Origin: Candidatus Wirthbacteria bacterium
GTDB lineage: Bacteria; Patescibacteriota; CG2-30-54-11
Reading direction: 5' to 3'
DNA: 64,000 nucleotides
Assembly (NCBI GenBank): GCA_903889905.1
Contig: CAISZI010000047.1
Coordinates: 80,096-144,095 of the forward strand
Shown here: positions 25,087 through 54,757 of the stretch, in pieces
Numbering within the stretch: position 1 is the stretch's first letter
Layout: each line of letters opens with the position of its first letter
Program-made: the position numbers and the translations under genes
The notes under the pieces: model-generated
Seen by the model: only the letters and a program-made list of their open reading frames with translations
Told to the model about the DNA's origin: nothing
The model's database searches: none

Positions 25087-25160
25087 GTTTATTTACCTTT
25101 AAAAAAAATTGGCACGACTTTATAATTCAGTTGCAAATCCGTGTAATTCCCACTCGGCTT
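25087..25160 (-). repeat. duplicated copy of the last ~70 nt (C-terminal SGNYTDLQLNYKVVPIF plus stop) of the 1447-aa gene
   Basis: Near-identical to 25797-25870 (4 substitutions); lies immediately upstream of the paralog 2 start. Confidence 0.6.
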
Positions 25161-25163
25161 CAA

Positions 25164-40300: not shown

Positions 40301-43300
40301 TTGACATCTTTGGTGATCTGGACGTTGGCCGCTTTGACAGCATTGACGTTCACGATCGCGGTCGACGTATCCTGGAGTTCGGCACCGATCAAGACTTGGG
40401 CCGTATTGGTGAACTGCGTGTCAGTTTTGACCGAGGGTGCTTTGGCGCCAATGGAAATGATGATTGATCCACCTTTGACCAATTTGAAGCCGTCATTGTT
40501 GTTGGGCCAGACATAGGTGGTGCTGTTGTAGGAACTGTTGTAACTGCTTACCGGGGTCATCAATAACTGGCTGGTGACATTGCCGCTGCCGTCTTTGATG
40601 GTGATTTCGGCGCGTTTCACTACTTGTGAGTTACCAATCTGTTCCATCATTGCGGTGAAGCCAGGTGGCAGGACATCTTTGACAAAGACGTTGGTCTCGT
40701 CGCGTCCGCCATTGTTATTCACTTTGATTGTCCAATCGGTTTCGCTCAAACTTTCAACGGTCTGGTTGCTGGGCGATTTGAGGATGCTGAGGGAAGTGGT
40801 GGGTAGCGGTTCTACCATAACCGTGGCTTCGGCAATATTGCTTTGTCCGCCAATGAATTTGGCCTGGGCACGATTGATGTAGGACGTTGCGACGGTTGGA
40901 TTGACGTTAACGAGGGCGTTGAAGACGATCTGGATCTGCTGGGACTGATTGGGTGCCAGGTTGATGGCATGGCCATAATTGTCCTTGGTCCACCAGAGTT
41001 CAACGGTCTTGGCGGGATCAAGTGCGGTGCAGCTGTATGACTGGTTGACTTTGTCCCAGGCGCAGGGGCCGGTAGGGTGTTGCTGCGTGATGCCAGAGGT
41101 AACACCTGCATAGGTAAACAAGGGGCCACTCGCGTCCTGTGGCAAGAAGTCGACGATGGCGACGTTATTGGCTGTGTGATTACCGTAGTTGGTGGCGGTG
41201 ATGGTGAATTTGATCTGTTGACCAAAACTGGTGGTCTGGGAATCAACAACTTTGGTAACCCGCACATCAGGTGAAACAATTTTGACCGTGATGGTATCGC
41301 CATAAGTGTTGGTCATAGTGTTGTCATGGTTGGTCTGGATATCGCCAGCTTTGACATAAAAGATGTAGCTGATCGTCTGACCGGGAGCAATATCAGGATT
41401 GTTGCCTTTGACCAGGGTGAGCTCCGAGCCGCTGCCCTGGATTACGCCTTCGCCCAGTTTGACGTTTTCGCTTTCGGTCCAGGGGCTGTTCACGTCATCC
41501 ATGACCTGGGAAATATTGTCGCTGAAGATAAAGCCGTGCATGGGTGCGCTGCCGGTATTGGTGGCGGTCAAGGTGTACTTGATCCAGTCGCCGGGATTGG
41601 CGGGGTTGGTTTCAGGATCCATTTCACGATCGGGTGTTTCGATCCAGGCATATTTGTGGAGCACAATATTGGGATTGGCGTTGATATTGAGCACCGCACT
41701 GGATTGTTTGACTTTGCTGCCATAGGCGACCTGGGCCATGTTGTTGACAATGGTCGTGCCGGACTGGAGCATATCGGCTTTGACTTTGGCCGTCAGGGTA
41801 TAAGTAATGCTGGAACCAGGCGCAAAGTTCACGTTACCCGTGCTGCTCAAAACAATCGGATTCGGGATTGGCTGGGTGTAGGTGTGGGTGTAGTTATTGG
41901 GACCGCTTACGGTGATGGAATCAAACACCGAGACATCGGGGTTGCCATTGATGGACATGAGGTCGGTAACAGCGCCCGTTTCGGGTGCGGTGCCAGAGTT
42001 ACCCACCTTGATCTGGTAGTAAGCGGTGTCGCCAGCTGAGACGAGAGCGCTGCCGCTATTCGTGCTCCAGCTCGGGCTGCTGCTGACGAATTTATTGATC
42101 CACATGTCAGAATCGACAACGATGTCACTGTCCACGGCGTGGTTGTTGGCGGGATTGACATCACGGGGAGAGGCATTGATGACATCGGCCAGATTGTCGA
42201 TGGAAGTTCCGGCCGTGACAGAAGATTTGAGTTTGATCGTGACTTGTGCAGTTGCGGTCTGGCCCAAAGGCAGATCAAAGGCTGACCAGAGGATCTGGCC
42301 GTTGGTATTGCTGACTACAGGATAAGAATGCGTCCCCAATGTAATGCTGGTAGCAGTCGCTGTATCCAGAAGGGAAGCGGCAGGAAGTGTGTCGGTCAGG
42401 ACAACGCCCAGGGCGGTCGTGGTACCATTGGAACCATCGTTGGTGATCGCAAGGGTATAAGTCGTGCTCGCGCCGGGAAGCAATGTCGTGACGCCGTCGT
42501 CTTTGGTGACTTTGACGTCCACGCGGGGCGAACTGACATAAACCACGGCGCTGGAGGAGCCAATCAATTTATCGTTGATCGATGCCGTAGCGGTATTGGT
42601 GTAACCAGTCGTCAAACTTTCGGCAATCGCGGCAGGAACATTAACCGGATAATTAATCGTCAGGGATGAACCAGCGGGCAGAAAGGAAGGAGTGCCGCAA
42701 GTCCAGGTGACGCTCTGGCCGCTCACGTTGGTGGCGCAGATCACGGTGGTGCTGCCGACTTTGGCAACGGTGCTGCCATCCACATAACTAAAGACATGGC
42801 CATTGCTGTCCTGGGGCAGGTTGTCGGTGACGATAACCTTGTCGCCGGCAACGTTGCTGGTGCTGTTGTTGGTCACGGTCACAGAGTAGTTCAAGACTTT
42901 GGCGTGGACGGTATCGGTATCCATCTGATAGCTGCTCGTTCCCTCTACAAGCTTGTTGATCTTGCCGGAAAGGCGAGTACCCACGTCAACCCAGGCACAG
43001 CTGACACCAGGGATCGCGTGAACATCACTGCCGTCTATAACCACCGTCGAGGCACAGTTCTGAAGACCATGACTGCCCGTTCCTGGTGGCTGGCTGGCGC
43101 TTACCTTGGTGCCGAAATAAAAAGTTACATTATGCCCGCTGAAATTGCTCGGTTGCACTACCCATTCCACCGTCGTGTCATGTTTAACCGTTTCCGCTAA
43201 ACTCACACCCGATGTCACAATTTGTCCCAAACCGCCATAGCTTGTGTTGGCTGGTAAAAGATCCGAAATCAATAAGCCGCCGAGTCCGACGGAACCTATT

Positions 43301-46300
43301 TCGGTAACACTAATCTTCCAGATCGCGTTATCACCAGGCATGACCAACGGATTAACTGCTGTTTTGGTAATCACGATATCCCGTACCGGGACATTAACGG
43401 TCTTGCCCTGAAACGAATTGGTCATCACATAGTTTGACGTACAATTCAGGCCGGCGCCAACCCCAGTGCTGATGGAACAAACTGGCCAGGTATCGGATGT
43501 GTTGATCACGACCACGAAGGATTCGGTAATCGTCTGTCCGGCGGGTATGGTTTTGGTTCCCCAACTGATCGTATTGCCATTAACGGTGCCATTATCCGAA
43601 ATTGACAATATGTGCGCGAATTGGAGAACACCGCCAATGTCGTCACTGAAGACAAAATTGGGATAATCTGCTTTACCTGTGGTCTCGGTGACGGTTAAGG
43701 TGTACTGCACCGGATAATAGGGATAAAGCGGATGATCTGCGCCGGCGATAATGGTTGAATTGGGCAGTGTTGCCGTTTTGTTAAAGCTGAGGTTGGGAAC
43801 GAAGTGGCTGACATAAACCACAGCGCTGGCTGAACCAACGGATTTGGTGACAGTGGAAGTACTGATCGTTGCCGTGGCGGTATTGGTGTAGCCAACTGTC
43901 AGGTTATTGGCAATCGCGGCAGGCACGCTGACCTGATAATTAATCGTCAGGGTAGCTCCAGCGGGCAGAAAAGAAGGAGTTCCGCAAGTCCAGGTGACGC
44001 TCTGGCCGCTCACGTTGGTGGCGCAGATCACGGTGGTGCTGCCGACTTTGGCAACGGTGCTGCCATCCACATAACTGAAGACCTGGCCATTGCTGTCCTG
44101 GGGCAGGTTGTCGGTGACGATAACTTTGTCGCCGGCAACGTTGCTGCTGCTGTTGTTGGTCACGGTCACGGCATAGTTCAACACTTTGGCGTGGACAGTG
44201 TCCATTTCTATCTGATCACTGCTCTGGCCTTCAACTTGCTTGGTTATGTTTCCTGTCAATCTGGTGCCAACGCCCACTTTGGCGCAGCTTTGGTTGGAGG
44301 TATAGCCATCGTCCGCAACCACGGCGCAGTTCTGGAGGCCGTTCGTCTGCACCACGGGAGGCTGACTGGCATTCACTTTGGTGGCAAAGAAGAAACTAAC
44401 GCTCTGCCCGCTGTAGGTGCTCGGCGCAACCGTCCAGGTGACGGTGTTGTGGGCGGCATCCAGGGATTCACTCAGTGAAATATTGGGTGTCACAATCTGA
44501 CCGAGCATGGCATAAGTCGTGCCAACGGGGAAAGTATCTTTGATCTGCGCGCCGCCCATGCCCATATTTCCGATTTCTGTGGCGGTGATTTTCCAGATGG
44601 CGTTGTCGCCAGACAGGACCGTGGGGTTGACCACGGTTTTGACAATGACCAGGTCACGCAGTGGCACATTGACTGTGACACCGTGGAAATTATTGGTCAT
44701 GACAAAACTGGAGGTGCAGCTCGTGCCGCAACCAACCCAGGTATTGGAAGGATTGACAACGACTTTGAATGTTTCGGTCATGGTCTGACCAGCCGTAATC
44801 GTGCCGCTGCCCCAGCTGATTGTGGTTCCAGCCACAGTGCCGGTCGGTGAAATGGCGGTTACGTTGGCGTATTTGAGGATATTGCTGATGTCATCGCTAA
44901 AGTCAAAGTTGGAATAATCCGCCTTACCTGTGGTTTCGCTCACGGTCAAGGTATAGAGCACGGTGTCGCCGGGGTAAGCGGGATGCAAGGCATCGGGTGT
45001 ACCGGTTTTGCCACCCGCAAATTGCGCTGTTTTGTTAAAGCTGAGGCTGGGGACGTAGTGATTGACATAAACATTGGCCGAATCCGTGGCGGTTTTGGTG
45101 ATGGAAGCGTAGCTGCCAGTGGCGGTCACAATGTTGTAAATGTCGGCGGTGACATTGAGTTTGACTTTGGTATAAGACTTGAAAGCACCATTGGTCAGAT
45201 TAAAAGTCGGAGCACTGTCAAGGTTGCCCAACTGGTCGTCAATAACGGAAACATTTGTCAGGGGTACGTTCCCGTTATTGGTAACTGTGTAACAATAGGT
45301 GACGGCTGTGCCGGAATCCACATGAACTTGTTTGACGAGTTGGCCATTTGCATCCAGTGGGCAGGAGGAAACACTACCCACGGCCACAGTTTTGACCACT
45401 GTGATCGAGGGTGCCGGGGAAACGGTGACACAGACAAAGGCTTTGTCAGTCGCCGACAAATTGCGGGCATTGCTTGTGCCAGGAATGGTAAAGGTGGTGG
45501 TGGCGGTGACAACGTTTTTGATCACCTGAGGACTCACGTTCATGGTCTGCGATTTGCTCAAGGGCTGGCTGGCACCTGCGGCAAGGGAGGCGATGGTGCC
45601 GATATTGCCCAGTTTGTCATCGTTCACCAGGACGTTGGTCAGGGTGACGTTGCCAGGATTGGTGACCTGATAGCAGTAAGTGACGGTTGAACCTTGAATG
45701 ATATTAAACGGATTATTGACGTCAGTCGCTATGCCAGGGCACTGGCCATTGTTGGAAACGGTTTTGACGATCGAAAGCTGAGGATTATCAACAATGATAC
45801 TGGCCGAAGCAGTCACTGTGCCATTGTTGTCGGCAACAGCAGTCGCGGTATTGGTGTAGGAATCGTTGTGCGTTGCGCCGGCGGTGCTTGCATTACCGGT
45901 TACGGTCACGGTACGGCTGCTATTGGGATTAACGTCGCCGAAGTTGCAGCTGATCGCATTACCCGTGCCCGAACAGGCGCCAGAATAGTTTGTGTTCGTA
46001 AACTGGCTGGGAATCGTGTCGGTCAAAACCACGTTATGGGCCAACCCCAGACCATTATTGGTGAGGGTGATTGTAAACTGGATGGCGTCGTTCAAGAAAA
46101 CTTCAGGAGTCGAAGTCGTTTTGGTAATGGCGAGAATAGGAATCAAGACGTGAACATTGGCGGTAGCTTGAATTTCACTGACCTGGTCAGCATGGGTTCT
46201 GGCAACGTTGGTGGAATCCTGTGCAACGCTGGCTTTACCTGTAACCGTGATGGTATGGCTGGTTCCGGCATTCATACTACCAAAATTGCAAATCACTGAA

Positions 46301-48588
46301 TTTCCGGTGACGGAGCACCCAGTGCCAGTCACAGCCACATTGCTGATCTGGCTGGGCACATCATCATTCAAGACAACATTGTTGGCAGTTACGGTACTGG
46401 TATTGTTAACCGTAATGTTCCAACTGACATTGTCTTTAAAAGTAACCGTTTGGTTGGCGGGTGTTTTGGTAATGCTGAGTGTAGGCAGTACCGGAGTATT
46501 TTTGACCAGAAGAATCAAGGTCTGGGTCTGACCGTTGGCAATTGTCACGCTTGGAATACATCCCCCTGTAGTCCCACAAATACCGGTGATATCGCTGTAG
46601 TTGGCTGCGAGTCCACCCATGTTTTGATAAGTATAAGTACCCAGTGCCACGTTAGCGGCAGTGCCTTTACCATTGACAATGGAAACTGGGGATGAAAGCC
46701 CATTCACGTTCACACTCAAATTGCTAGCCGTGTAAAAGGTATCCCCCTGACTGATCATGTTGTCGTTGTTATCGTCCTGATAGACTTCCACTTTCACGTT
46801 GCCCACCTGGGGAGGTGCGGCATTCACGGTAATATTGGCAGTATCGCTAACTGGTGAAGTCTCGGTGGCTGTAGCAGTTGCGGTATTGGTTGCATTCCCT
46901 GCGGTGTTTGCGGTTCCACTCACAGTGATGGTTTTGGTCTGACCGGCGGTCAGTGTCCCGACCGGAATCGAAATATTGTTATTTGAACCACTATAGTCGC
47001 CGCTGTAGGAAACAGCATTGACAAAGTTGGGTACACTGTCGGTCAAGGTCACATTGGTCAAGGTTCCGGTGCCGGCATTTTTGACGGTGACTGTCCAGGG
47101 ATCAACCGTCTGTCCAACAGTTTTCGTCTGGTTCTTGGCATCGCCGACGCTGTCATTCTTGGTCACAACCAGATTGAACGTTGGTGCTGGGTTGACGCTA
47201 ATGTTAGCCGAATCGCTGACTGGCGAAGTCTCGGTGGCTGTAGCTGTTGCGGTATTGGTTGCATTCCCTGCGGTGTTTGCGGTTCCACTCACGGTGATGG
47301 TTTTGGTCTGACCGGCTGTCAGTGTCCCGACCGGAATCGAAATATTGTTATTTGAACCACTGTAATCGCCGCTGTAGGAAACAGCATTGACAAGGTTGGG
47401 TACGCTGTCGGTCAAGGTCACATTGGTCAAGGTTCCGGTGCCGGCATTTTTGACGGTGACTGTCCAAGGATCAACCGTCTGTCCAACGGTTTTCGTCTGG
47501 TTCTTGGCATCGCCGACGCTGTCGTTCTTGGTTATGGACAAAGAATAAGTCGGTGCAGCCACCACATTCACAATGCCCGTATCGGTATAATACTTCGTTC
47601 CGCCAACCGTTTCTGTGGTCGGGCCGCCCGGGATGTTGTCGATGTTGTAGCAAGTCACGCCGGCTTTATTATTCAGGGTTCCGGTAGCACCAGCGGCAAT
47701 GGTCATGTCAAAATTCTGGTTAACAGTAGCTCCCGGAGCGATATTGCCAATTGTACGAGTTGTGGAACCTTCGACAAACTTGCCGGTCTCGGGCCAGTCG
47801 ACCAATGTGCAGGTGTAAGCGCTGCCCTGTGCTCCGGTCGTATTGTTGGTAATGGAAACGGGGAAACGCACCACATCGCCGGCAGTAATCGTGCCGGTGC
47901 CGTCTTTGTCAGTCAGCAGTGTACCGTCGCCCTTGTTGATGGTCAGATTGGCGGCAAAAAACTGGTATTGTTCACCATCCGTATTGGCGTGTTGATTGGT
48001 GTAACCAGTATAAGAATAGGTCCATTTGGAATAATTACGCAAAATCGTGCCACTAGCCAGATTGGCATTAGGCTGAAAGGTCATACGGACACTCAACACC
48101 TGATTCTTGGCAAGATTTATTGAACCCGATGCTGGCCAGGTTGCCATTGTTCCGGAAAAAGCCCCAGTTCCCATATTTTCAGATCCTGCCGGGCAACGTT
48201 GTGCATACAATACATTATTGCTGTCATAAACATTTTCCAAACTGCCATAGTCGCAACGCAATACTTCCAAAGCCTGGATATTGCGTGCGCCAGTGTTCAA
48301 CGATGCAGTGCCTGCTAGCGCAGTTGCAAGTCCAGTATCAGTCAAATCAACCAAACCTGAGACGCTAGTTAATTCCATACTGGCCGAACTGGGCGAGATC
48401 GCATAATAAGTCGCGGTATTGGCAGCATTGTTGTCCCGTTCCCATTTGGTAGTTTGCACAGCTGCGCTAACCGGGGAAGCGCTGATGTTGATAAAGGGCA
48501 CAATTTGATTGAGAATAACTGCCAACGACAAAACCACGCCCAGTTTTTTGCGTGGATTATGTACGAATCGGCTGAATATGTTAGTCAT
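37318..48588 (-). CDS. giant (about 3756 aa) cell-surface adhesin-like protein with DUF11-type conserved repeat domains and C-terminal LAXTG-type sorting signal
   Basis: Signal peptide (start MTNIFSRF with GGAGG RBS). Dozens of DUF11/TIGR01451-like repeats (TKxVxxxTAxxGDTVTYTITVTNxG...). C-terminus ...VLAGTGTN-LSVVILIVLAVIAAYGLFLV-LKKRKSSVK is a LAXTG motif plus hydrophobic stretch plus basic tail. Confidence 0.85.
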   Translation of the reverse strand: MTNIFSRFVHNPRKKLGVVLSLAVILNQIVPFINISASPVSAAVQTTKWERDNNAANTATYYAISPSSASMELTSVSGLVDLTDTGLATALAGTASLNTGARNIQALEVLRCDYGSLENVYDSNNVLYAQRCPAGSENMGTGAFSGTMATWPASGSINLAKNQVLSVRMTFQPNANLASGTILRNYSKWTYSYTGYTNQHANTDGEQYQFFAANLTINKGDGTLLTDKDGTGTITAGDVVRFPVSITNNTTGAQGSAYTCTLVDWPETGKFVEGSTTRTIGNIAPGATVNQNFDMTIAAGATGTLNNKAGVTCYNIDNIPGGPTTETVGGTKYYTDTGIVNVVAAPTYSLSITKNDSVGDAKNQTKTVGQTVDPWTVTVKNAGTGTLTNVTLTDSVPNLVNAVSYSGDYSGSNNNISIPVGTLTAGQTKTITVSGTANTAGNATNTATATATETSPVSDSANISVNPAPTFNLVVTKNDSVGDAKNQTKTVGQTVDPWTVTVKNAGTGTLTNVTLTDSVPNFVNAVSYSGDYSGSNNNISIPVGTLTAGQTKTITVSGTANTAGNATNTATATATETSPVSDTANITVNAAPPQVGNVKVEVYQDDNNDNMISQGDTFYTASNLSVNVNGLSSPVSIVNGKGTAANVALGTYTYQNMGGLAANYSDITGICGTTGGCIPSVTIANGQTQTLILLVKNTPVLPTLSITKTPANQTVTFKDNVSWNITVNNTSTVTANNVVLNDDVPSQISNVAVTGTGCSVTGNSVICNFGSMNAGTSHTITVTGKASVAQDSTNVARTHADQVSEIQATANVHVLIPILAITKTTSTPEVFLNDAIQFTITLTNNGLGLAHNVVLTDTIPSQFTNTNYSGACSGTGNAISCNFGDVNPNSSRTVTVTGNASTAGATHNDSYTNTATAVADNNGTVTASASIIVDNPQLSIVKTVSNNGQCPGIATDVNNPFNIIQGSTVTYCYQVTNPGNVTLTNVLVNDDKLGNIGTIASLAAGASQPLSKSQTMNVSPQVIKNVVTATTTFTIPGTSNARNLSATDKAFVCVTVSPAPSITVVKTVAVGSVSSCPLDANGQLVKQVHVDSGTAVTYCYTVTNNGNVPLTNVSVIDDQLGNLDSAPTFNLTNGAFKSYTKVKLNVTADIYNIVTATGSYASITKTATDSANVYVNHYVPSLSFNKTAQFAGGKTGTPDALHPAYPGDTVLYTLTVSETTGKADYSNFDFSDDISNILKYANVTAISPTGTVAGTTISWGSGTITAGQTMTETFKVVVNPSNTWVGCGTSCTSSFVMTNNFHGVTVNVPLRDLVIVKTVVNPTVLSGDNAIWKITATEIGNMGMGGAQIKDTFPVGTTYAMLGQIVTPNISLSESLDAAHNTVTWTVAPSTYSGQSVSFFFATKVNASQPPVVQTNGLQNCAVVADDGYTSNQSCAKVGVGTRLTGNITKQVEGQSSDQIEMDTVHAKVLNYAVTVTNNSSSNVAGDKVIVTDNLPQDSNGQVFSYVDGSTVAKVGSTTVICATNVSGQSVTWTCGTPSFLPAGATLTINYQVSVPAAIANNLTVGYTNTATATISTSTVTKSVGSASAVVYVSHFVPNLSFNKTATLPNSTIIAGADHPLYPYYPVQYTLTVTETTGKADYPNFVFSDDIGGVLQFAHILSISDNGTVNGNTISWGTKTIPAGQTITESFVVVINTSDTWPVCSISTGVGAGLNCTSNYVMTNSFQGKTVNVPVRDIVITKTAVNPLVMPGDNAIWKISVTEIGSVGLGGLLISDLLPANTSYGGLGQIVTSGVSLAETVKHDTTVEWVVQPSNFSGHNVTFYFGTKVSASQPPGTGSHGLQNCASTVVIDGSDVHAIPGVSCAWVDVGTRLSGKINKLVEGTSSYQMDTDTVHAKVLNYSVTVTNNSTSNVAGDKVIVTDNLPQDSNGHVFSYVDGSTVAKVGSTTVICATNVSGQSVTWTCGTPSFLPAGSSLTINYPVNVPAAIAESLTTGYTNTATASINDKLIGSSSAVVYVSSPRVDVKVTKDDGVTTLLPGASTTYTLAITNDGSNGTTTALGVVLTDTLPAASLLDTATATSITLGTHSYPVVSNTNGQILWSAFDLPLGQTATAQVTIKLKSSVTAGTSIDNLADVINASPRDVNPANNHAVDSDIVVDSDMWINKFVSSSPSWSTNSGSALVSAGDTAYYQIKVGNSGTAPETGAVTDLMSINGNPDVSVFDSITVSGPNNYTHTYTQPIPNPIVLSSTGNVNFAPGSSITYTLTAKVKADMLQSGTTIVNNMAQVAYGSKVKQSSAVLNINANPNIVLHKYAWIETPDREMDPETNPANPGDWIKYTLTATNTGSAPMHGFIFSDNISQVMDDVNSPWTESENVKLGEGVIQGSGSELTLVKGNNPDIAPGQTISYIFYVKAGDIQTNHDNTMTNTYGDTITVKIVSPDVRVTKVVDSQTTSFGQQIKFTITATNYGNHTANNVAIVDFLPQDASGPLFTYAGVTSGITQQHPTGPCAWDKVNQSYSCTALDPAKTVELWWTKDNYGHAINLAPNQSQQIQIVFNALVNVNPTVATSYINRAQAKFIGGQSNIAEATVMVEPLPTTSLSILKSPSNQTVESLSETDWTIKVNNNGGRDETNVFVKDVLPPGFTAMMEQIGNSQVVKRAEITIKDGSGNVTSQLLMTPVSSYNSSYNSTTYVWPNNNDGFKLVKGGSIIISIGAKAPSVKTDTQFTNTAQVLIGAELQDTSTAIVNVNAVKAANVQITKDVKEGKIASGNAWTKTLLLDHTSNDTWVTYRVVVSNPGQLGETVNLSDVVDFTSPQRIYDQLKVYKHTNTGDVLTATYFASTYHDSTIALVQGLLVPAGSSDATNPANMCTGCTYLIEAQIRPSFYQNETSNENIARALQTRTLNVLAEDKAVVKVSLTPSLQVTKYVRNLTTNSGWVVDNVTAAPGDQLQYKIEVINNGYVAIPSVNVTDTLQGRDTYFTNIGVNNADSDADGKAFVGSWDNMTLTNLDVGQTESFTIQAVVKSPFPGNSMSLTNQVWANNVPSNIVKVNVVLSPKPAIKKYVSLDGKNFFDKVNAIPGATVEYKVLVWNEGNGDLSLTVNDVLDATQYASIGVLNQDADNNGTKYIGTDYQTQQITVKAGTSENNAEVFTLDAVLKADGFKEGDLVKNVASFTFQNQEYHGETTITIHVPLSNLVLSKSAFNTTQNKDAQSSTAQAGDIVTYTLKVSNSGDGTAVNYKFMDEISNVLTYADFKTASDGGTLVNNSVVWPTIGTINAGSSASRTFQVQVKNPLPTTGNFIMSNVFGNQTQVPVGSIELHKAVSFVDGGAVNRALRAGDQLVYTLTAINHSSNVAPGFVFTDDVSNLTRYAGNFSKVVTTDPAFTTTDVNQDGVIEKISWAAADLAANATVTRRFEVTVKDFSTWPANGDLTMTNTYGDTTTVKLINLSLTKVASPTQVNSTDSDTNRVITYTLTLKNSTAQNATNLFITDLLPAGFTYAGQAQINGQAAVPQQSTVNGRVYLVWQGVNLAANTTAIVTYTTLAPAAAGSYTNLASLTDIQGSPFDTAHATVTVVTPPTQPTPNPLLISKAANVTTVVHGNNVSYTVSVSNNGNAAITFTLQDILPPGFAYVAGSANVAGTAAEPQVNTTASSITWSGLNLAAGHNIIVTYQTKSANLAGYYTNIATATSGSWTASASATVMVTVPQVLSATTTAPFVSVLAGTGTNLSVVILIVLAVIAAYGLFLVLKKRKSSVK
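42350..44930 (-). repeat. about 1.29-kb coding repeat unit present twice inside the giant gene (cores about 42600-42960 and about 43890-44250 are nearly identical)
   Basis: Long identical DNA stretches seen directly, e.g. aatcgcggcagg...ccgcaagtccaggtgacgctctggccgctcacgttggtggcgcagatcacggtggtgctgccgactttggcaacggtgctgccatccacataact in both copies. Confidence 0.7.
46842..47579 (-). repeat. tandem direct repeat, 2 x about 369 bp (123 aa), about 97% identical, inside the giant gene
   Basis: Copy A about 46842-47210; copy B about 47211-47579. Encodes duplicated TFNLVVTKNDSVGDAKNQTKTVGQTVDPWTVTVKNAGTGTLTNVTLTDSVPN... modules. Confidence 0.8.
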
Positions 48589-48648
48589 GCAACCTCCCTG
48601 ATAAAGCAGATAAAATCTAGGTAAAAAAGTAGAAAACAACTTTCAGGT

Positions 48649-48672
48649 GCATCAATATGCACCAAGGTTATT
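48649..48672. promoter_or_regulatory. perfect palindrome GGTGCAT-N4-ATGCACC upstream of the giant gene (operator-like)
   Basis: GGTGCATCAATATGCACC lies about 60 nt upstream of the giant-gene start codon in an AT-rich spacer. Confidence 0.4.
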
Positions 48673-48691
48673 TGTTTTTATTTAAGACTAT

Positions 48692-48720
48692 ATTTTAACT
48701 TATTTATACTATTAAATCAA
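48692..48720 (-). promoter_or_regulatory. sigma70-like promoter for the giant gene
   Basis: Minus-strand TTGATT, 17-nt spacer, TAAAAT in the AT-rich 48640-48750 spacer. Confidence 0.35.
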
Positions 48721-48749
48721 ACAACTAATATAATTATTTAAACTATCTG

Positions 48750-51700
48750 TTATCCATTTGGCCTCTGTCCATCACCTGCTGAACGAATAACGGGAGCCGG
48801 TGGCGGCTGACCATCTCCAGGTGGGCGAATATCGGGAGGTGGCAGCTGACCATCGCCAGGTGGGCGAATCACCGGAGAACTACCGCCAACAGGCGTAGAC
48901 GGATGGTTAACAATGCTCTCAAACGGCGCAACTGACTGCAAAGTCTTGGGATCCTGGATATACCACGCCGCTTTGTCCGCTTTCCAGACTAACTGAAATT
49001 GCCACCGGGCACCGTCACGTACTGGAGAAAATTCGCGACCGGCACCCAGTGCAGTTGGCATGCCAAAACTAGGATTGTTAGCATCCTCGCGTAGCAAAAG
49101 CGTTGCTCCATCCTTGATATTACCCGTTCCAGAGTCAATGAATTCTGGCGGAACCGTGGTACGATCCGGGATACCCGAAAGTCGTCCGCCATTGACATCA
49201 AGCGACGCAACCGTCTGGCCGGCGTAGCCACCTTTGAGAATCGCTTCACCCAAATGGTGATTGTATCCCATGTCTACAGGTTTATGTGTGACAGGACTTT
49301 CCATCAGTTTAAAGAAGGCCACTTTCTCGTTTTCCACGAATTGGCCAGCATTCGCACATTTGTTGGCTGCAATTTCTAACACTGTTTCTACCTTACCATT
49401 CTGGCCAACTTTGGCTAGGACAGTAATGACATCGCCTTCCTTCCAGTTGGCATCTGACACAGAGAGACCACCTGCCTGGTCATAGGTAGCATTGTTGGCC
49501 ATCATCCCATGACGCGGAATCTCAAACCCGGGATAATGCTTTGAAAATTCACCAACAGTTAATGTTTCAAAGGAAAATTTAGTGTCCCCAGCATCGTCAA
49601 AGCGACCATTGCCATTCGTGTCCACTGCATAGAATTGTTTACCAGCGATCATCTCAAGCTTCTTAAAATTCCCATTGGCAATGGCTTCAATCATACCTGG
49701 CGCTTTGACACCCGCCGCCGCGCGGAACAACTCTGCCATATAAGCCCAGTCCTGACGGTCTCCAGCACTTGCCTGTGCAATGGTTTCAGGGGTACTGGCA
49801 TGATTCGCCGTAAATGTTCCCGGAGCTGTCTGCCCTTTGGGAAGGTTGCTCAAAACGGCTGTAGCTGCGGCTTTTTCCAGGATTGCTGGATGGTTTGCCG
49901 CTACGGCACTGATATCAACAGACTTTGTTGCAGCAGGTGCTGCCACGACAAGGGGTTCAACTCCCCTACCCACGTCAGCTTTCACAGATACACCCGTCAC
50001 CTCCACTAAATTGCTATTTAATATTATGGGGTCATTGGAAGAATTAAGACTTCGAGAAGGATCTCCAATATCATTGTGAGAAATCGTCAACGCACCGAAT
50101 TGCAATTCAATATTGCCATTGGGATAGATATGGATACAGGTAGGATCGAGGACAAACTTGTCACCCGGATAGACATTGCCTTCGACACGCTGGAACTGCG
50201 TGGTTAATGCGGCGGTCAAGGTATTGACATTCATGTCCTTGAATTCAGGAATATTTTTGACCAGGTCTTTGGCAATGTTGGAGGATTCAGACCAAAAGCT
50301 GTCACCCGGGTGCGCCGTAGATTCAAATGTCTGGAGACTAGACTTGTTCCCAGATGTAATTTGCACTCTTAATGAGTTATCAGCAATTGCCTGACTTAAC
50401 TGGGTATCATTTATCCCGGTACCGTTCGTATGTTTGACCATCACGGTGACTTTGGCAAAATCCACGATGACATGGCCGTCATTACCAACGGTGACGGCAT
50501 CATTAGCAATACTTAAACCAACCTTATCCCCAGCATTAACCGTAATTTTTTGATCAGTAGCCAATCTGACAAGCATGTTCGTCAATTCATCAAGCTGAGC
50601 TATTCGAAGATTCAATTTAGGAAGATCAGGGGTAGATTCATCAAGGAGCTTAGTAATGACATCTCTGATAGTCAGGGTCGCATCACCAGAAGCAGTTGTA
50701 TTGATCTCAATATAACTAAAAATTTTGTCAGGCGGCTGTTGCCCTGCCTGTTCGAAATGGTCAACCTTGATCGGAGAATTCAGCTTGCCGCCGCTGCTGC
50801 TGCGCGCGCGACTGGCCAAATCAGATATTGCTGTGTCGGTTATCGTCGCATGCTGAGCCACTGACTGCTCCACAACCACAGTTCCACTAGGATGGGTTGA
50901 GGTGCTGGCCTGCGCGGTTGCGATCAGGTGTTCGGCTCCGGCGACTACTTTGCCGGCGACAAAATTGGCGCCCATAGCGATTTCGGTCCTGATTCCCTGC
51001 ACCAGCGGTGTATTCATCACCAGGCTTCCGACGGTACGGCTGGCCGCAGTGGCGATACCGGTAATCCCGGCTTTAATCAGGACGTTTTGGAGTATGGACG
51101 AATTCATGCGCTTTTTGGCCTCACTGACATTGTCCTGTGCCGCTGGCATGGCCTCGGCAATTAAATCTCTGGCCGCCACGATAGCCTTGGCCTGATCAAC
51201 GGCTGAATCGCCTCGACGTAATTGATTGATCAATAAATTGCCAAAAAAGGATGCTTTGTCTTCAATGCCCATAATTTGGGCTTCGGCCACAAGTTGAGCC
51301 AATTTTAGCGGGGTTGTTCCGTCATTGTGATCCAAAGCACCGAAACGTTCATCCAAACGGCCGGCAAAAGCCATCTGTTCAATTTGCATGGCCTCTACGC
51401 CACCGGCATTCCCGGCAGTTCCGATCGACGCCACTGCGCGGGCTCCTGAGACCACTCCCCCCACTGCTCCCAGCGCAAAAGAACCGGACATGACAAGGTT
51501 TGATCCTCTCAGCCATTTTTCACTTTTAACGAATTCCATCACCTGTTTGACGCCATCGCTGCTGACAACTCTTTGGGCGATCGCCGCAACTTTGGCCACC
51601 AAGTCCTCTGGTTGAGAATCCTTTTTGTTGTCGGTGACTGCATGCCGCAACATTGTCAACATGACTGCTTCGGCACGCGCCCGGACCATTTTATCTACGT

Positions 51701-53162
51701 TCAGATTAGCGCCCTGCAACTTATCTGACATGCCGTTCATGATATCGGTCAATGCCGTGTTGTAAGCGATAATCAATCGCGGCAGCTGCTCGGCATTATC
51801 CAACCCAGCCCGTAAGTCATGGATGGCCGGCTGCAGTTTACGTTCGATGATTTTGTCGATCATCTTGGCGGCAGCGGCATTGGGGTCACGTTCAAAAGCG
51901 TCATGGGCCTCAGCAGCTTTGTTACGGTCAAGGTTGGTCGCCACGGCCAGCTGCGTGGACACGGTTTCAATACCGATCTTGCGACCGCTAAAGCTGACAC
52001 TTCGTGATGTCCCCATGACCGACGAGACACCGAAATTGAAATTCCGTAAATTCTGTTGAAAACGATCCTTGCTGAACATACCTCTCGGATCAAAGGCATT
52101 TTTGGTGCTGAAATCCGCGGGCACATAAGCCATGACATCTTTATTCGCAAAAAAGCCGGTCAAAGACCCGCCGTGCTGTAAATGCTGTTTCAAATCGGCA
52201 TGTGTTTCCACCATAGCCAGCAGCATCCCCACAAAGTCCAATCCGCCCATTTCCACGGTACGTTTATTGACCGTCATCTCGGCCATGTCAGCCTGACGCC
52301 CCATGATACGGCTGGCAAATTGCACCAGGCGGCTTTTGGGTTGATTACTCTCCACAAGCTCATCGTTGACCAAGGACTTCAGTTCGGCTTGCCATTTGCT
52401 GACCTGTTGCTGGGTGCGAACAGCGGCATCTGCGGCTATGGCCATTTCGACTTGATGTTTGGTGCCGGAATACGACACCATCCGGTCGTAGCGAAGCACA
52501 TCAAGCTTTCCCGCCAGGGTTGTCGCCTGAGGACGGTTTTGCTCGGCGAGTTGCTCTACCACTCTGGCAACATGTTTGCCCGTTTCGCCGATTTCGATTT
52601 CCTGTGCAGCATTTCTGGCACGTTCATCCAGGCGATCATAGGCTTCAAACCTGCGTCGTTCGGAACGAGGCCTCTTACTTTCGTGTGGAGCCTGATTTCC
52701 GTCCAGACCATCGGTATCAGCCGTGAGTGCTGTGTCGTTGATCATGATGTCCCGGCTGCGAATCTGGATACCTTGACGAGGATTTGGATCCAAATTGACA
52801 ACAAAAGTTGTCTCAACTTTAAAATTCCGTTCATGCCTGCTTTGCAAATAAGCAACCAACGCCAAAACTAGGGTTGTCTGGATCTCCTGTTCGGTTCCAG
52901 CTCTGTTCTGCCCGTGGACTTGATCCATGATTGCCTGCGTCAAGACCTCGGCAACGCGTTGCGGGCCGGCTTTTTCACGCAACCTATAGGGTACCTGCAT
53001 TTTTTGAGGTTCATATTCGAATATTTGCTTCCCAATAGATTCATCCCGCCTGCTTCCGCCCCCGACACCTGTGTACATTACCGGTAGGCTTCCCCTGCCG
53101 CGAATTTCGGGAAACACCATAGCCGAGGCGTCATATCTTGAAAGTGTCATATTTCCCACCAT
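48750..53162 (-). CDS. very large (1470 aa) orphan hypothetical protein without N-terminal signal peptide; Gly/Ala-rich amphipathic segments and C-terminal IRPPGDGQ(P)PP repeats
   Basis: Long uninterrupted ORF with no recognisable catalytic motif. Three tandem PPGDGQ repeats at the extreme C-terminus. Central G/A-rich hydrophobic stretches (GSFALGAVGGVVSGARAVASIGTAGNAGG; ITGIATAASRTVGSLV). Confidence 0.7.
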   Translation of the reverse strand: MVGNMTLSRYDASAMVFPEIRGRGSLPVMYTGVGGGSRRDESIGKQIFEYEPQKMQVPYRLREKAGPQRVAEVLTQAIMDQVHGQNRAGTEQEIQTTLVLALVAYLQSRHERNFKVETTFVVNLDPNPRQGIQIRSRDIMINDTALTADTDGLDGNQAPHESKRPRSERRRFEAYDRLDERARNAAQEIEIGETGKHVARVVEQLAEQNRPQATTLAGKLDVLRYDRMVSYSGTKHQVEMAIAADAAVRTQQQVSKWQAELKSLVNDELVESNQPKSRLVQFASRIMGRQADMAEMTVNKRTVEMGGLDFVGMLLAMVETHADLKQHLQHGGSLTGFFANKDVMAYVPADFSTKNAFDPRGMFSKDRFQQNLRNFNFGVSSVMGTSRSVSFSGRKIGIETVSTQLAVATNLDRNKAAEAHDAFERDPNAAAAKMIDKIIERKLQPAIHDLRAGLDNAEQLPRLIIAYNTALTDIMNGMSDKLQGANLNVDKMVRARAEAVMLTMLRHAVTDNKKDSQPEDLVAKVAAIAQRVVSSDGVKQVMEFVKSEKWLRGSNLVMSGSFALGAVGGVVSGARAVASIGTAGNAGGVEAMQIEQMAFAGRLDERFGALDHNDGTTPLKLAQLVAEAQIMGIEDKASFFGNLLINQLRRGDSAVDQAKAIVAARDLIAEAMPAAQDNVSEAKKRMNSSILQNVLIKAGITGIATAASRTVGSLVMNTPLVQGIRTEIAMGANFVAGKVVAGAEHLIATAQASTSTHPSGTVVVEQSVAQHATITDTAISDLASRARSSSGGKLNSPIKVDHFEQAGQQPPDKIFSYIEINTTASGDATLTIRDVITKLLDESTPDLPKLNLRIAQLDELTNMLVRLATDQKITVNAGDKVGLSIANDAVTVGNDGHVIVDFAKVTVMVKHTNGTGINDTQLSQAIADNSLRVQITSGNKSSLQTFESTAHPGDSFWSESSNIAKDLVKNIPEFKDMNVNTLTAALTTQFQRVEGNVYPGDKFVLDPTCIHIYPNGNIELQFGALTISHNDIGDPSRSLNSSNDPIILNSNLVEVTGVSVKADVGRGVEPLVVAAPAATKSVDISAVAANHPAILEKAAATAVLSNLPKGQTAPGTFTANHASTPETIAQASAGDRQDWAYMAELFRAAAGVKAPGMIEAIANGNFKKLEMIAGKQFYAVDTNGNGRFDDAGDTKFSFETLTVGEFSKHYPGFEIPRHGMMANNATYDQAGGLSVSDANWKEGDVITVLAKVGQNGKVETVLEIAANKCANAGQFVENEKVAFFKLMESPVTHKPVDMGYNHHLGEAILKGGYAGQTVASLDVNGGRLSGIPDRTTVPPEFIDSGTGNIKDGATLLLREDANNPSFGMPTALGAGREFSPVRDGARWQFQLVWKADKAAWYIQDPKTLQSVAPFESIVNHPSTPVGGSSPVIRPPGDGQLPPPDIRPPGDGQPPPAPVIRSAGDGQRPNG

Positions 53163-53416
53163 AAAAAAAACTAGCTTAAAGTTCTGTTTTTGTTACTTTT
53201 TTGCTAGTTCTGCTTTTTGGTGGAGACGTATTTTGGTGCTTAGCCAACTCCGATTTGGTTCGGTGGCCAAGGTGATATTATCACTTTTATTCTCAATACT
53301 GTCAATAGTCTAAGACCTTCGCGTTGCTTTTTCAAGGCCCAGTTGATCGTTGCTTTACTTATATCAAATTCATACACAGATTGCAACAGTTGCCAATTCC
53401 TCAACCACTACACCCT

Positions 53417-53459
53417 CTTTCTTCCCCTCTCCTAGTTTAGGAGAGGGCAGGGTGAGGTA
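53417..53459 (+). repeat. 43-bp direct repeat copy 1 (contains hairpin CCCCTCTCCTA-GTT-TAGGAGAGGG)
   Basis: ctttcttcccctctcctagtttaggagagggcagggtgaggta; nearly identical second copy at 54377-54419. Confidence 0.7.
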
Positions 53460-53529
53460 AGCCCCCTCCCCTTCCCATCAAAAAAAAAGTCCCCCCACGG
53501 GACTTTAACGCAAAATCCAGTAAAGCCTG

Positions 53530-53604: not shown

Positions 53605-54140
53605 CTACCGCCACATAGCGGGCAGAAAGGTGTGACGGTCTGCTGCAGCGGGCAGTGAAAACTGCACGCTGTCTACCAGCTGACCATCAAGCTGGTAGAG
53701 CGCCAGGGTCAAGGTCAAACCCTGGCGCCAACTCCCCACTGCGAGAGCGTAGTGATCCTGGGGGAAAATCACTACGGACTGGGTGTACACGGCCCCGGAT
53801 GGGGTCGGTACGAATTGCTCCCAGTCGCTCTGGTCTGCGCCCGTGAGGGCTACCAGACCAGTCTCTGTCATTCTACCCCAACACCGTGGAGTGGTGTTGG
53901 GGCAACCGAACAAGGAAGCGGTGATGGTGTAAACCACCCCGCTCCGTATTTCGGTAGCGTATTGCCCATCGGGGGCCAATACGCCGAATGAAACTCCGCC
54001 GGTCGGGACCAAGGGTCCCTGGCTGGCGGAATTATTTTGCACCGGTCCCTGCACCAGTGCAAAAGCTGGGGTCACCCCCACCAGCAGGGTTGCCGTCGCG
54101 ACTATGGCCGCGACGGCACGAAAAAACTTTCCAAACATTT
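53605..54140 (-). CDS. small secreted hypothetical protein (about 178 aa)
   Basis: Start MFGKFFRAVAAIVATATLLVGVTPAFA (signal peptide) with GGAGGTG RBS. The ORF track's longer N-terminal extension has no RBS. Confidence 0.6.
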
Positions 54141-54376
54141 TAGCACCTCCTAGTGCTAAGGGGTTTGAGGTCCCCCTGCCACCCGTGGAACGCCCGCTAA
54201 CCAGGCTCCTTTTGTATTGCAACCCGACGAATTAATCTCGTTGCAAAACAAACCAGAAAGCCAGGAGCTTTCTAGTCCCTACCGCGCACGGTAGGATTGC
54301 TCACCCAACGGCACGGGTCGGCAGAAAAGAGAGAAGAGCACCTCCCCAACCCCTCCTAATCTAGGTGGGGCAATGC

Positions 54377-54419
54377 ATTTCTTCCCCTCTCCTAAGTTAG
54401 GAGAGGGCAGGGTGAGGTA
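54377..54419 (+). repeat. 43-bp direct repeat copy 2
   Basis: atttcttcccctctcctaagttaggagagggcagggtgaggta; with copy 1 it brackets the secreted-protein gene (about 960-bp spacing). Confidence 0.7.
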
Positions 54420-54757
54420 TTTCCCCCCTTTCTGCCGCCCGCGACATTCGGCACCCGGCGCCGGACTATTCATGGCGGCATCTGATATTGTGTCTGTTTC
54501 CTCAGGCCATGAGCACCACCCATTCCACGTTAGCTGGCCGCCGCAATGGCGGCTGCTCACTGGAAGCGGTGACTCAAAGCCCAAGGGCTCTGAGATTTTT
54601 AAGGTACGCCGCTTCGATTGAAGCGGCAAAGGAAAGCCTTGGCATTGGACAAGACCTTCCGCTGCCACTTCGCAATTGGTTTTAGATTCTATTATAACAT
54701 TGTCCTGAGTTTTTTAGGCTCTCGACATGGTTATCTGGTCGAATTTCCCAACAATTC

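What the first reader, a model, noticed from the sequence alone, without database searches (positions are those of the whole stretch)
48750..53162. 1470-aa orphan protein with no signal peptide, glycine-rich amphipathic segments and C-terminal PPGDGQ tandem repeats, encoded immediately upstream of the giant adhesin
No catalytic or known domain motifs were recognisable by eye. The long Gly/Ala-rich hydrophobic stretches flanked by helical regions recall translocator or pore-forming proteins, or large effectors. The proline-rich C-terminal repeats (IRPPGDGQLPPPD/IRPPGDGQPPPAP/VIRSAGDGQ) suggest an extended stalk or binding tail. Co-orientation with the adhesin and a long (about 440 nt) 5' leader suggest a cargo or partner role in host or partner-cell interaction.
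Basis: inference. Interest (0 to 1): 0.6.

Follow-up and report, generated by a model that had tools for sequence, protein, structure and literature searches.

The report
Singleton orphan protein beside giant adhesin
A real 1466-1470-residue gene in a bacterium related to Candidatus Wirthbacteria has no detectable relative among about 15 billion public proteins, so its role next to a giant surface adhesin can only be guessed from its composition.

Summary
The ORF exists as described: 48750-53162, minus strand, 1470 codons, with the likely start at M5 (53150). It is certainly coding. It has no signal peptide, two Gly/Ala-rich apolar stretches, and three 13-residue Pro-rich C-terminal repeats. 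It lies about 160 nt upstream of a 3756-aa sortase-anchored DUF11 adhesin.

Two details are wrong. The Gly-rich stretches are apolar, not amphipathic. The "440-nt leader" is an intergenic region holding the upstream gene's terminator, a palindromic repeat and a near-consensus promoter, which leaves a structured leader of about 120 nt.

Every homology route found only the protein itself. These were Pfam, NCBIfam, PHROGs, PADLOC, PDB, a 5.8-billion-cluster search, an exhaustive phmmer of residues 1-1200 against 1.84 billion representatives, and genome, metagenome, viral, phage and plasmid scans. Single-sequence AlphaFold models were unusable.

The host is a sparsely sampled lineage (trigger factor 41% identical to Candidatus Wirthbacteria). 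The gene lies in a stretch that is not syntenic with the three relatives available.

Composition suggests a two-part protein: a helical, cytoplasm-like N half and a C half that looks more like the exported proteins and uses different codons.

My low-confidence reading is a membrane-associated envelope protein. The translocator or adhesin-partner idea can be neither supported nor refuted.

The parts
48750..53162 (-). Coding sequence of the orphan protein. It is 1470 codons from the first ATG; the likely real start is ATG at 53150 (M5), giving 1466 aa, identical to database entry P0001.
   Evidence: The coding log-likelihood is positive only in this frame.
51507..53162 (-). N-terminal region, aa 1-552. 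It is predicted almost entirely alpha-helical, is rich in charged residues, has pI 8.9 and a cytoplasm-like composition. It has no signal peptide.
   Evidence: DSSP on the AF2 model gives 65% helix, at low confidence except aa ~418-555, where pLDDT is 64-79. Composition score is -0.07 to -0.24, as for the cytoplasmic controls. Hydropathy.
51387..51506 (-). Gly/Ala-rich apolar stretch 1, aa 553-592 (GSNLVMSGSFALGAVGGVVSGARAVASIGTAGNAGGVEAM). It contains small-xxx-small ('glycine zipper'-like) runs.
   Evidence: Kyte-Doolittle 19-residue maximum is 1.58. Hessa dG is +3.8 kcal/mol, which is marginal. Hydrophobic moment is 0.14-0.29. Zipper pattern.
50913..51098 (-). Gly/Ala-rich apolar stretch 2, aa 689-750: three short apolar helices broken by R, K, E and H residues.
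   Evidence: Kyte-Doolittle maximum is 1.22. It does not reach the Hessa threshold used. Mean H is 0.45 and hydrophobic moment 0.14.
50730..50912 (-). Ser/Thr-rich linker, aa 751-811. The third-position GC change-point falls at its end (aa ~812).
   Evidence: S+T make up 24% of aa 701-800. Change-point: GC3 0.56 before and 0.43 after, chi-square 23.
48873..50729 (-). C-terminal region, aa 812-1430. It is a mixed, strand-containing region with pI about 5.2, a composition between the cytoplasmic and exported controls, and GC3 of 0.43, which is atypical for this window.
49584..49622 (-). Single DxNxNGxxD motif (DTNGNGRFDDAGD, aa 1181-1193), which resembles a calcium-binding loop of the FG-GAP, dockerin or EF-hand type.
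   Evidence: Regular-expression match. There is no Pfam support. The resemblance is recalled from memory, not tested.
48753..48872 (-). Three tandem 13-14-residue Pro-rich repeats at the extreme C-terminus (aa 1431-1470).
   Evidence: Translation. TRF finds period 39, 2.3 copies, 81% matches at 48784-48877. Direct-repeat family D7.
53277..53305 (-). Sigma-70-like promoter TTGACA-17-GATAAT (11 of 12 matches), the best in the 6-kb region scanned.
   Evidence: This is a consensus match only; it has not been shown to be active.
53140..53275 (-). Predicted 5' leader of about 120 nt. It forms two hairpins, and in the second UCUCCACC pairs with the SD-like GGUGGGA and the first AUG.
   Evidence: MFE is -39.3 kcal/mol against -21.3 +/- 3.3 for shuffles, z = -5.5. 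Sequence.
53486..53506 (-). Intrinsic terminator of the upstream small secreted-protein gene. It separates that gene's transcript from the orphan gene.
53418..53466 (-). 49-nt palindromic repeat element. A second copy, 90% identical, lies at 54378-54426.
   Evidence: Repeat family D10. Two exact 21-mer matches against 0 expected.
48589..48749 (-). AT-rich spacer of about 160 nt before the adhesin gene. It has weak promoter-like sites and an 18-nt palindrome (48646-48663) but no canonical terminator on the minus strand.
37318..48588 (-). Context: the giant adhesin, 3756 aa from ATG 48588. It has a signal peptide, 15 DUF11 repeats, isopeptide-forming domains, and a C-terminal LAGTG + TM + KKRK sorting signal.

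Best explanation
This is a genuine protein-coding gene that is so far unique. It belongs to a bacterium related to Candidatus Wirthbacteria (the sister group of the CPR) with a Gram-positive-type, sortase-using envelope. It sits in an accessory, non-syntenic stretch of the chromosome.

The protein is bipartite:
- The N-terminal ~550 residues are all-helical and cytoplasm-like.
- They are followed by two clusters of apolar Gly/Ala-rich helices (553-592 and 689-750).
- After a Ser/Thr-rich linker comes a ~620-residue region whose composition leans towards that of the exported proteins of this genome and whose codon usage differs from the rest of the gene.
- The protein ends in three Pro-rich 13-residue repeats.

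My most likely reading is an envelope-associated protein. It would use the central apolar helices to sit in the cell's own membrane, with the N half inside and the C half outside. That would present the C-terminal region and its extended Pro-rich tail at the surface, where the neighbouring adhesin also acts.

It is transcribed from its own promoter. A structured ~120-nt leader masks the weak ribosome-binding site, so expression is probably low or conditional.

Shown: the ORF, its coding signal, its uniqueness, the segment composition, the codon change-point, the promoter-like and terminator-like sites, and the leader fold. Inferred: localisation, topology, any link with the adhesin, and function.
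For: Real gene:
- 1470 open codons with a frame-specific codon signal.
- The tetranucleotide signature is close to the rest of the window (r = 0.84 against 0.85-0.93).

Bipartite build:
- The N half is predicted 65% helical.
- The composition log-odds (exported versus cytoplasmic proteins of the same window) is -0.07 to -0.24 for aa 1-750 and 0.00 to +0.07 for aa 751-1470.
- pI is 8.9 for the N part and 5.2 for the C part.
- GC3 changes at aa ~812, from 0.56 to 0.43 (chi-square 23). Most genes in the window are at 0.55-0.72.

Central apolar stretches:
- They are the only hydrophobic segments of the protein. Mean H is 0.45-0.53 with a low hydrophobic moment, which is the TM-like rather than the surface-seeking corner of Eisenberg's plot.
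- The N-side flank of stretch 1 is basic and the C-side flank acidic (sequence).

Own transcription unit:
- Terminator at 53506-53486 and an 11/12 promoter at 53305-53277.
- Leader fold z = -5.5, with the SD-like site paired.

Envelope-rich neighbourhood:
- A sortase-substrate adhesin lies downstream and a small secreted protein upstream. At least 13 ORFs in the window have signal peptides or N-terminal anchors.

Accessory position:
- The GT2-trigger factor pair and the two Pfam-less genes after it are conserved in the nearest relative (33-34% identity).
- The DNA upstream of GT2 differs in all three relatives: SpoU methylase in two, and a different toxin-antitoxin pair in the third.
Against: - There is no signal peptide or strong signal-anchor. 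The best apolar window scores +3.8 kcal/mol on the Hessa scale, worse than all but one of the roughly 20 bona fide TM helices tested in the same window. The second stretch does not reach the +4.0 threshold.
- The composition classifier is crude. It was trained on 12 + 11 proteins, the controls were not held out, and one 'exported' control scores -0.09. The C half scores only around zero.
- The structure models are unusable (pLDDT 42 and 34), so helicity and domain limits are soft.
- Nothing ties the gene to the adhesin except position. The AT-rich spacer carries promoter-like sites, so the adhesin may be transcribed independently.
- With a single sequence there is no evidence of purifying selection.
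Confidence: 0.3

Rival explanations
1. It is a soluble cytoplasmic structural or scaffold protein that is never exported. It could be unrelated to the adhesin, or it could organise the cell pole or attachment site from inside, as the signal-peptide-less, Pro-rich HMW-type accessory proteins do for the Mycoplasma adhesins.
For: - No signal peptide.
- The apolar stretches are marginal for membrane insertion.
- The N-terminal 750 residues have cytoplasm-like composition, and the whole protein scores -0.06.
- The N half is long, helical and charged.
- No secretion machinery is encoded nearby.
Against: - The C half has lower charge and more Ser/Thr/Asn than the cytoplasmic controls.
- The Gly/Ala-rich apolar runs of 30-60 residues are unusual for a soluble scaffold.
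- The Mycoplasma analogy is recalled from memory. No sequence similarity to any Pfam family, including cytadherence families, was found.
Confidence: 0.25
2. The protein is released without a Sec signal and acts as an alpha-helical pore-former, translocator or large effector. The Gly/Ala-rich hairpins are buried in a helical bundle until they insert into the membrane of another cell that the adhesin has bound.
For: - A helical bundle predicted with moderate confidence (aa ~418-555, pLDDT 64-79) lies directly before the first apolar hairpin.
- Small-xxx-small zipper runs are present.
- There is no Sec signal.
- The gene is co-oriented with, and next to, a giant adhesin.
- It sits in an accessory island with atypical codon usage in the C half, as seen in modular toxins.
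Against: - No match to any pore-former, translocator, LXG, RHS or polymorphic-toxin family.
- No small immunity-like ORF lies downstream; the spacer is non-coding.
- No dedicated secretion system is present in 64 kb.
- No WxG or RTX motifs.
- The stretches are not amphipathic.
- It is unknown whether this lineage lives attached to other cells.
Confidence: 0.15
3. It is a relic of a mobile element, for example a diverged phage tape-measure-like or conjugation protein. Such proteins are long, helical, lack signal peptides and carry Gly-rich apolar segments.
For: - The general architecture fits.
- It lies in a non-syntenic stretch with a toxin-antitoxin pair and palindromic repeats nearby.
- GC3 is atypical.
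Against: - No PHROG hit beyond a chance-level one (E = 0.006, 'virion structural protein', no stretch passing on its own).
- No match in 50,697 phage records, 72,556 plasmids or IMG/VR.
- No integrase, portal, terminase, tail or conjugation gene was found among the ORFs scanned in the window.
- The tetranucleotide signature is close to the host's.
Confidence: 0.07
4. The ORF is not functional: either a decaying gene or a recently arisen frame that is not translated into a working protein.
For: - It is a singleton with no homologue anywhere.
- The SD-like site is weak compared with the neighbours' AGGAGG or GGGAGG.
- The codon score (0.19) is lower than for housekeeping genes such as trigger factor (0.49).
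- AlphaFold confidence is low.
Against: - A 1470-codon open frame cannot persist by chance or long after inactivation at 51% GC.
- The codon score equals that of other lineage-specific genes that do have orthologues (0.17-0.23).
- The positional GC pattern is typical of coding sequence: 0.585, 0.43 and 0.50 at positions 1, 2 and 3.
- It has a near-consensus promoter.
- Low pLDDT is expected for any single-sequence prediction.
Confidence: 0.05

Closest known systems
Alpha-helical pore-forming or translocator proteins (colicin-type pore domains, type III translocators such as IpaB/YopB, glycine-zipper effectors)
   Same: - No Sec signal.
- A helical region followed by 30-60-residue uncharged Gly/Ala-rich stretches with small-xxx-small spacing.
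   Different: - No sequence match to any such family.
- No secretion system, chaperone or immunity gene nearby.
- The hydrophobicity is marginal.
- The protein is several times larger and has a ~700-residue non-helical C half.
- The resemblance is compositional and recalled from memory.
Phage tape-measure proteins and T5 Pb2-like tail proteins
   Same: - More than 1000 residues and a long helical part.
- Gly-rich apolar segments in the middle.
- No signal peptide.
   Different: - No PHROG or Pfam tape-measure hit.
- No phage, plasmid or viral-contig match.
- No phage genes in the window.
Mycoplasma cytadherence accessory proteins (HMW1/HMW3/P200 type)
   Same: - Large and without a signal peptide.
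- Pro-rich repeats.
- Encoded beside adhesin genes in a wall-poor or reduced lineage.
   Different: - No sequence similarity.
- Only 40 residues here are Pro-rich, and they are not acidic.
- The host is unrelated.
- The comparison is from memory and was not tested beyond the negative Pfam scan.
Sortase-anchored Gram-positive surface proteins with Pro-rich wall-spanning segments
   Same: - A Pro-rich repeat tail near the C-terminus.
- Neighbour of a true sortase substrate (LAGTG + TM + KKRK).
   Different: The orphan has no signal peptide, no LPxTG/LAxTG motif and no C-terminal TM helix or basic tail.

Membership tests
Any curated protein family (Pfam-A, NCBIfam, PHROGs, PADLOC) | A profile-HMM match at or near the family's threshold | tested here: not met
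   - No families matched the whole protein in Pfam, NCBIfam or PADLOC.
- Nine overlapping 300-residue windows at E <= 5 gave only chance-level Pfam hits, the best at E = 0.009.
- One PHROG hit at E = 0.006 had no stretch passing on its own.
Any protein with a solved structure | Sequence or fold similarity to a PDB chain | tested here: inconclusive
   - phmmer of the whole protein and of four segments gave no hit better than E = 0.28.
- Foldseek with the two models gave best E values of 0.007 and 2.2 with TM-scores <= 0.15.
- The models themselves are unreliable (pLDDT 42 and 34), so fold similarity remains untested in practice.
Sec/Tat-exported or sortase-anchored surface proteins | An N-terminal signal peptide, plus (for sortase substrates) a C-terminal LPxTG/LAxTG motif, TM helix and basic tail | tested here: not met
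   - There is no hydrophobic N-terminal region (12-residue Kyte-Doolittle maximum 0.67).
- There is no L[PA]x[TA]G motif.
- There is no C-terminal TM helix.
- The neighbouring adhesin shows all three features.
Integral membrane proteins | At least one segment with a favourable predicted insertion energy, comparable to known TM helices of the same genome | tested here: inconclusive
   - The best window, 556-574, scores +3.8 kcal/mol.
- Control TM helices in the window score -4.7 to +2.8, with one at +3.7.
- Eisenberg mean H is 0.45-0.53 with a low hydrophobic moment.
- No dedicated topology predictor was available.
Alpha-helical pore-formers / secretion-system translocators | Homology to a pore or translocator domain; a cognate secretion system, chaperone or immunity gene; demonstrated membrane permeabilisation | tested here: not met
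   - No homology was found.
- No such genes were found among the window's ORFs.
- Permeabilisation cannot be tested with these tools.
Phage tape-measure proteins | A match to a tape-measure family and a position inside a tail-gene module | tested here: not met
   - PHROGs and Pfam were negative for tape-measure families.
- There was no phage or viral match.
- The neighbours are an adhesin, a small secreted protein and a toxin-antitoxin pair.
Functional partner or operon member of the DUF11 adhesin | Co-conservation of the two genes across genomes, and co-transcription | not testable with these tools
   - No homologue of the orphan exists in any collection searched.
- The three relatives with the conserved GT2-trigger factor pair carry other genes upstream or end too early.
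- There is no terminator between the two genes, but there are promoter-like sites.

The most novel reading that the evidence does not exclude
The orphan is the founding member of a new class of Sec-independent, membrane-inserting proteins. A Wirthbacteria-like bacterium (sister lineage of the CPR) would use it together with its sortase-anchored giant adhesin to open a channel into, or fuse with, the membrane of a partner cell. In other words, it would be a previously unseen cell-contact translocon in the lineage nearest to the episymbiotic CPR.
Probability: 0.06. Interest if true: 0.75.

Novelty: categorically new. Interest (0 to 1): 0.3.

Why it matters
The value here is limited but real.

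- This is a large, clearly coding gene with no detectable relative in about 15 billion predicted proteins, from one of the least sampled bacterial phyla next to the CPR. By contrast, two other Pfam-less genes a few kilobases away do have recognisable orthologues in the nearest relative. The gene is therefore either a strain-level accessory gene or an unusually fast-evolving one.
- "Categorically new" is meant only in the narrow sense that it belongs to no detectable family. No new mechanism has been shown.
- If the membrane-inserting or partner-cell reading were right, it would bear on how CPR-related bacteria contact other cells. As it stands, the finding is a well-documented orphan and a candidate for structure prediction with newer tools and for metaproteomic confirmation.

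Tried and rejected
Homology searches that found nothing but the query itself:
- Pfam and NCBIfam on the whole protein.
- Pfam on nine 300-residue windows at E <= 5.
- PHROGs and PADLOC.
- PDB by sequence, on the whole protein and four segments.
- The word-indexed search of 5.8 billion clusters, with the whole protein and with aa 1101-1470.
- Exhaustive phmmer of aa 1-1200 against 1.84 billion representatives.
- Pattern + tblastn scans of GTDB species genomes, JGI metagenomes and IMG/VR.
- tblastn against phage and plasmid records.
- phmmer against all ORFs of the window and of the loci fetched up to that point.

Structure: two single-sequence AlphaFold2 jobs gave pLDDT 42 and 34. Foldseek against the PDB returned only generic helical-repeat noise. 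I ran no further search on such models.

Internal repeats: self-BLAST and windowed Smith-Waterman with shuffles found none. In particular, the two middle segments that looked alike by eye scored 29 against a shuffle mean of 25.5.

Source contig: exact look-ups of the orphan and of trigger factor found no record.

Synteny: a profile-guided metagenome scan for Wirthbacteria-like trigger factor loci returned only two short or irrelevant loci.

RNA: Rfam found nothing in the window or in the leader.

Rejected ideas:
- Diversity-generating retroelement target: no template/variable repeat pair.
- Sortase substrate: no motif.
- RTX / type I secretion substrate: no GGxGxD.
- Recent horizontal transfer of the whole gene: the tetranucleotide signature is near-native.

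Full report
**1. The observation**

The only database entry for it (P0001; NCBI/ENA; a 160,035-bp contig; a one-member cluster) starts four codons later at ATG 53150. That start has a weak SD-like GGUGGGA in front of it.

Stop to stop, the frame is 1480 codons, so no upstream start could add a signal peptide. At about 51% GC an open frame of this length cannot be chance. A codon log-likelihood trained on 12 domain-bearing genes of the window is positive only in this frame (+0.19). That is lower than trigger factor (0.49) but equal to other lineage-specific genes (0.17-0.23).

Other points that hold:
- The N-terminus has no hydrophobic core.
- The Gly/Ala-rich stretches are at aa 553-592 and 689-750.
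- The C-terminal repeats are real at both the protein and the DNA level: 39-nt period, 2.3-3 copies, at 48757-48877.
- No Walker, HExxH, GxSxG, CxxC, WxG, RTX or LPxTG-like motif is present.

Two details fail:
- The Gly-rich stretches are uniformly apolar, not amphipathic (hydrophobic moment 0.14-0.29; no window in Eisenberg's surface-seeking class).
- The 442-nt gap upstream is not a leader. It holds the intrinsic terminator of the upstream gene (53506-53486), a 49-nt palindromic repeat (53418-53466) and an 11/12 TTGACA-17-GATAAT promoter (53305-53277).

The remaining leader of about 120 nt folds much better than shuffles (z = -5.5). In that fold, UCUCCACC pairs with the SD-like site and the first AUG.

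**2. Surroundings and host**

Downstream, after an AT-rich spacer of about 160 nt, lies the giant adhesin. It is 3756 aa from ATG 48588 and has:
- a signal peptide;
- 15 DUF11 repeats, plus DUF7507 and DUF7927/isopeptide-forming domains;
- a C-terminal LAGTG + TM helix + KKRK sorting signal.

This is a sortase substrate, so the envelope is of the Gram-positive type.

Upstream, in order, are:
- a 177-aa secreted protein with no known domain (53605-54138);
- a 460-nt gene-free structured stretch;
- a PIN toxin with a 93-aa upstream partner.

The window as a whole is rich in exported proteins, with at least 13 ORFs carrying signal peptides or N-terminal anchors. About 15 ORFs lack any Pfam domain.

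The trigger factor at 56375-57796 is 41% identical to that of Candidatus Wirthbacteria bacterium CG2_30_54_11 and 43-47% identical to three unnamed sequences. It is at most 34% identical to everything else, and only about 30% identical to any GTDB species representative reached by the pattern scan. Wirthbacteria is a candidate phylum with one named species, and it has been used as the outgroup to root the CPR tree (PMC6146748). The host is therefore a deep, very sparsely sampled relative of that lineage. This is an inference from one marker.

**3. Homology and structure**

Every route returned only the query. The full list is in the field on what was tried. The strongest tests were:
- the exhaustive phmmer of aa 1-1200 against 1.84 billion representatives;
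- the word-indexed searches of 5.8 billion clusters with the whole protein and with aa 1101-1470.

There is no paralogue in the window and no significant internal repeat.

With no alignment available, AlphaFold2 gave pLDDT 42 for aa 5-770. That model is 65% helix in 29 helices, and only aa ~418-555 reach pLDDT 64-79. For aa 771-1470 it gave pLDDT 34. Foldseek hits had TM-scores of 0.15 or less and are meaningless. The protein is a strict sequence orphan whose fold is unknown.

**4. Is orphan status just sparse sampling?**

Partly. The nearest relative (trigger factor 47% identical) is known only from a 5-kb contig.

On that contig, however, the two Pfam-less genes that follow trigger factor in the window (224 and 375 aa) have syntenic orthologues. 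These are 34% and 33% identical, with E = 4e-22 and 2e-55. Lineage-specific exported proteins are therefore still recognisable at this distance.

The GT2-trigger factor pair is conserved in all three relatives, but the DNA upstream of GT2 differs:
- SpoU methylase in two of them, followed in one by acyl-CoA dehydrogenase and ETF genes;
- a nucleotidyltransferase/HepT toxin-antitoxin pair in the third.

The stretch from the adhesin to the PIN pair (about 37.3-55.5 kb) therefore behaves as a variable, accessory region.

Inside the orphan gene, third-position GC drops from 0.56 to 0.43 at aa ~812 (chi-square 23). Most genes in the window lie at 0.55-0.72. The overall tetranucleotide signature stays near-native (r = 0.84). 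This points to a mosaic gene whose C half has a different history or different constraints, not to recent transfer of the whole gene.

**5. What the sequence itself says**

The protein has two unlike halves.
- *aa 1-552:* charged, helical, basic (pI 8.9).
- *aa 553-750:* two apolar Gly/Ala-rich clusters separated by about 100 helical residues.
- *aa 751-811:* a Ser/Thr-rich linker.
- *aa 812-1430:* acidic (pI 5.2), poorer in Lys/Arg/Glu and richer in Ser/Thr/Asn. It carries one DxNxNGxxD loop (1181-1193).
- *aa 1431-1470:* the Pro-rich repeats.

I built a simple log-odds score contrasting 12 exported and 11 cytoplasmic proteins of the same window. It puts aa 1-750 among the cytoplasmic controls (-0.07 to -0.24) and aa 751-1470 around zero to +0.07, at the low edge of the exported controls. 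This test is crude, with a small training set and controls that were not held out.

On the Hessa scale the best 19-residue window (556-574) is +3.8 kcal/mol. It is marginal next to real TM helices of the same window, which score -4.7 to +2.8 with one at +3.7. The second cluster does not reach the +4.0 threshold used.

**6. Explanation and rivals**

I commit, at about 0.3, to a membrane-associated envelope protein. The N half would be inside, the central apolar helices in the membrane, and the C half and Pro-rich tail outside. It would be expressed from its own promoter under a leader that masks the RBS. Only the anatomy is shown. Topology and function are inferred.

The rivals are:
- a purely cytoplasmic scaffold (0.25);
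- a mobile-element relic (0.07);
- a non-functional ORF (0.05).

The remainder is "something else". The link to the adhesin rests on position alone, in a window where exported neighbours are the norm. It cannot be tested without homologues.

**7. Comparison with known systems**

In build, the protein recalls alpha-helical pore-formers and translocators, phage tape-measure proteins, and the signal-peptide-less Pro-rich accessory proteins of Mycoplasma adhesion. All of these are resemblances from memory. For each, the testable membership criteria (family profile match, gene context) were tested and not met. It is not a sortase substrate.

**8. Verdict**

This is a real and well-delimited orphan gene. 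Its functional idea is neither supported nor refuted.

Novelty is "categorically new" only in the sense of belonging to no detectable family. Interest is modest (0.3), because large orphans are expected in such lineages and nothing here makes an open question testable yet.

Noticed in passing
window 54240-54700 (-): A 461-nt gene-free stretch between the PIN toxin gene and the small secreted-protein gene folds at -228.6 kcal/mol on the minus strand (z = -10 against shuffles). On the plus strand it reaches only -191.7 kcal/mol (z = -6.3). It is preceded by TGTTATAAT (about 54697-54689) and ends in a hairpin plus U-run (about 54275-54245). There is no Rfam match. It could be a novel structured RNA or a cluster of palindromic repeat elements.
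   Followed up: partly
window 53418-53466 and 54378-54426: Two copies, 90% identical, of a 49-nt palindromic element (core CCTCACCCTGCCCTCTCCTAA...GGAGAGGG) bracket the small secreted-protein gene. One copy forms the tip of the long hairpin in the structured stretch above.
   Followed up: partly
window 53140-53275 (-): The predicted leader of the orphan gene folds with z = -5.5. An upstream UCUCCACC pairs with the SD-like GGUGGGA and the first AUG, next to a U8 run. This may be a translational or attenuation control element.
   Followed up: partly
window 24198-25604 (-): Three tandem paralogous small genes (133, 141 and 146 aa) each have an N-terminal TM helix and a Cys-containing domain with no Pfam match. 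They lie in a 40%-GC pocket with GC3 of 0.30-0.45. Their upstream sequences are repeated at 693-nt spacing (60-nt repeat, 92% identical).
   Followed up: no
window 54758-55439 (-): A PIN-domain toxin (140 aa) is preceded by an overlapping 93-aa ORF with no Pfam match, probably its antitoxin. The closest relative carries a different toxin-antitoxin pair (nucleotidyltransferase/HepT) at the same place upstream of GT2-trigger factor, which suggests a variable junction.
   Followed up: partly
window 57829-59588 (+) and L086 3133-4972: The two Pfam-less genes downstream of trigger factor are a 224-aa membrane-anchored protein and a 375-aa Cys-rich secreted protein with repeated CxxxC...GDG motifs. 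Both have syntenic orthologues (34% and 33% identity) in the nearest relative, so they form a conserved lineage-specific pair of unknown function.
   Followed up: partly
window 59658-62690 (+): A 1010-aa Cys-rich secreted protein has no Pfam, PHROG or PADLOC match. It is another large unassigned protein in the same neighbourhood.
   Followed up: no
window 37318-48588 (-): The giant adhesin ends in LAGTG + TM + KKRK. This is an LAxTG-type sorting signal, which from memory is the motif of class E sortases. No sortase gene was found among the window's ORFs that were scanned.
   Followed up: no
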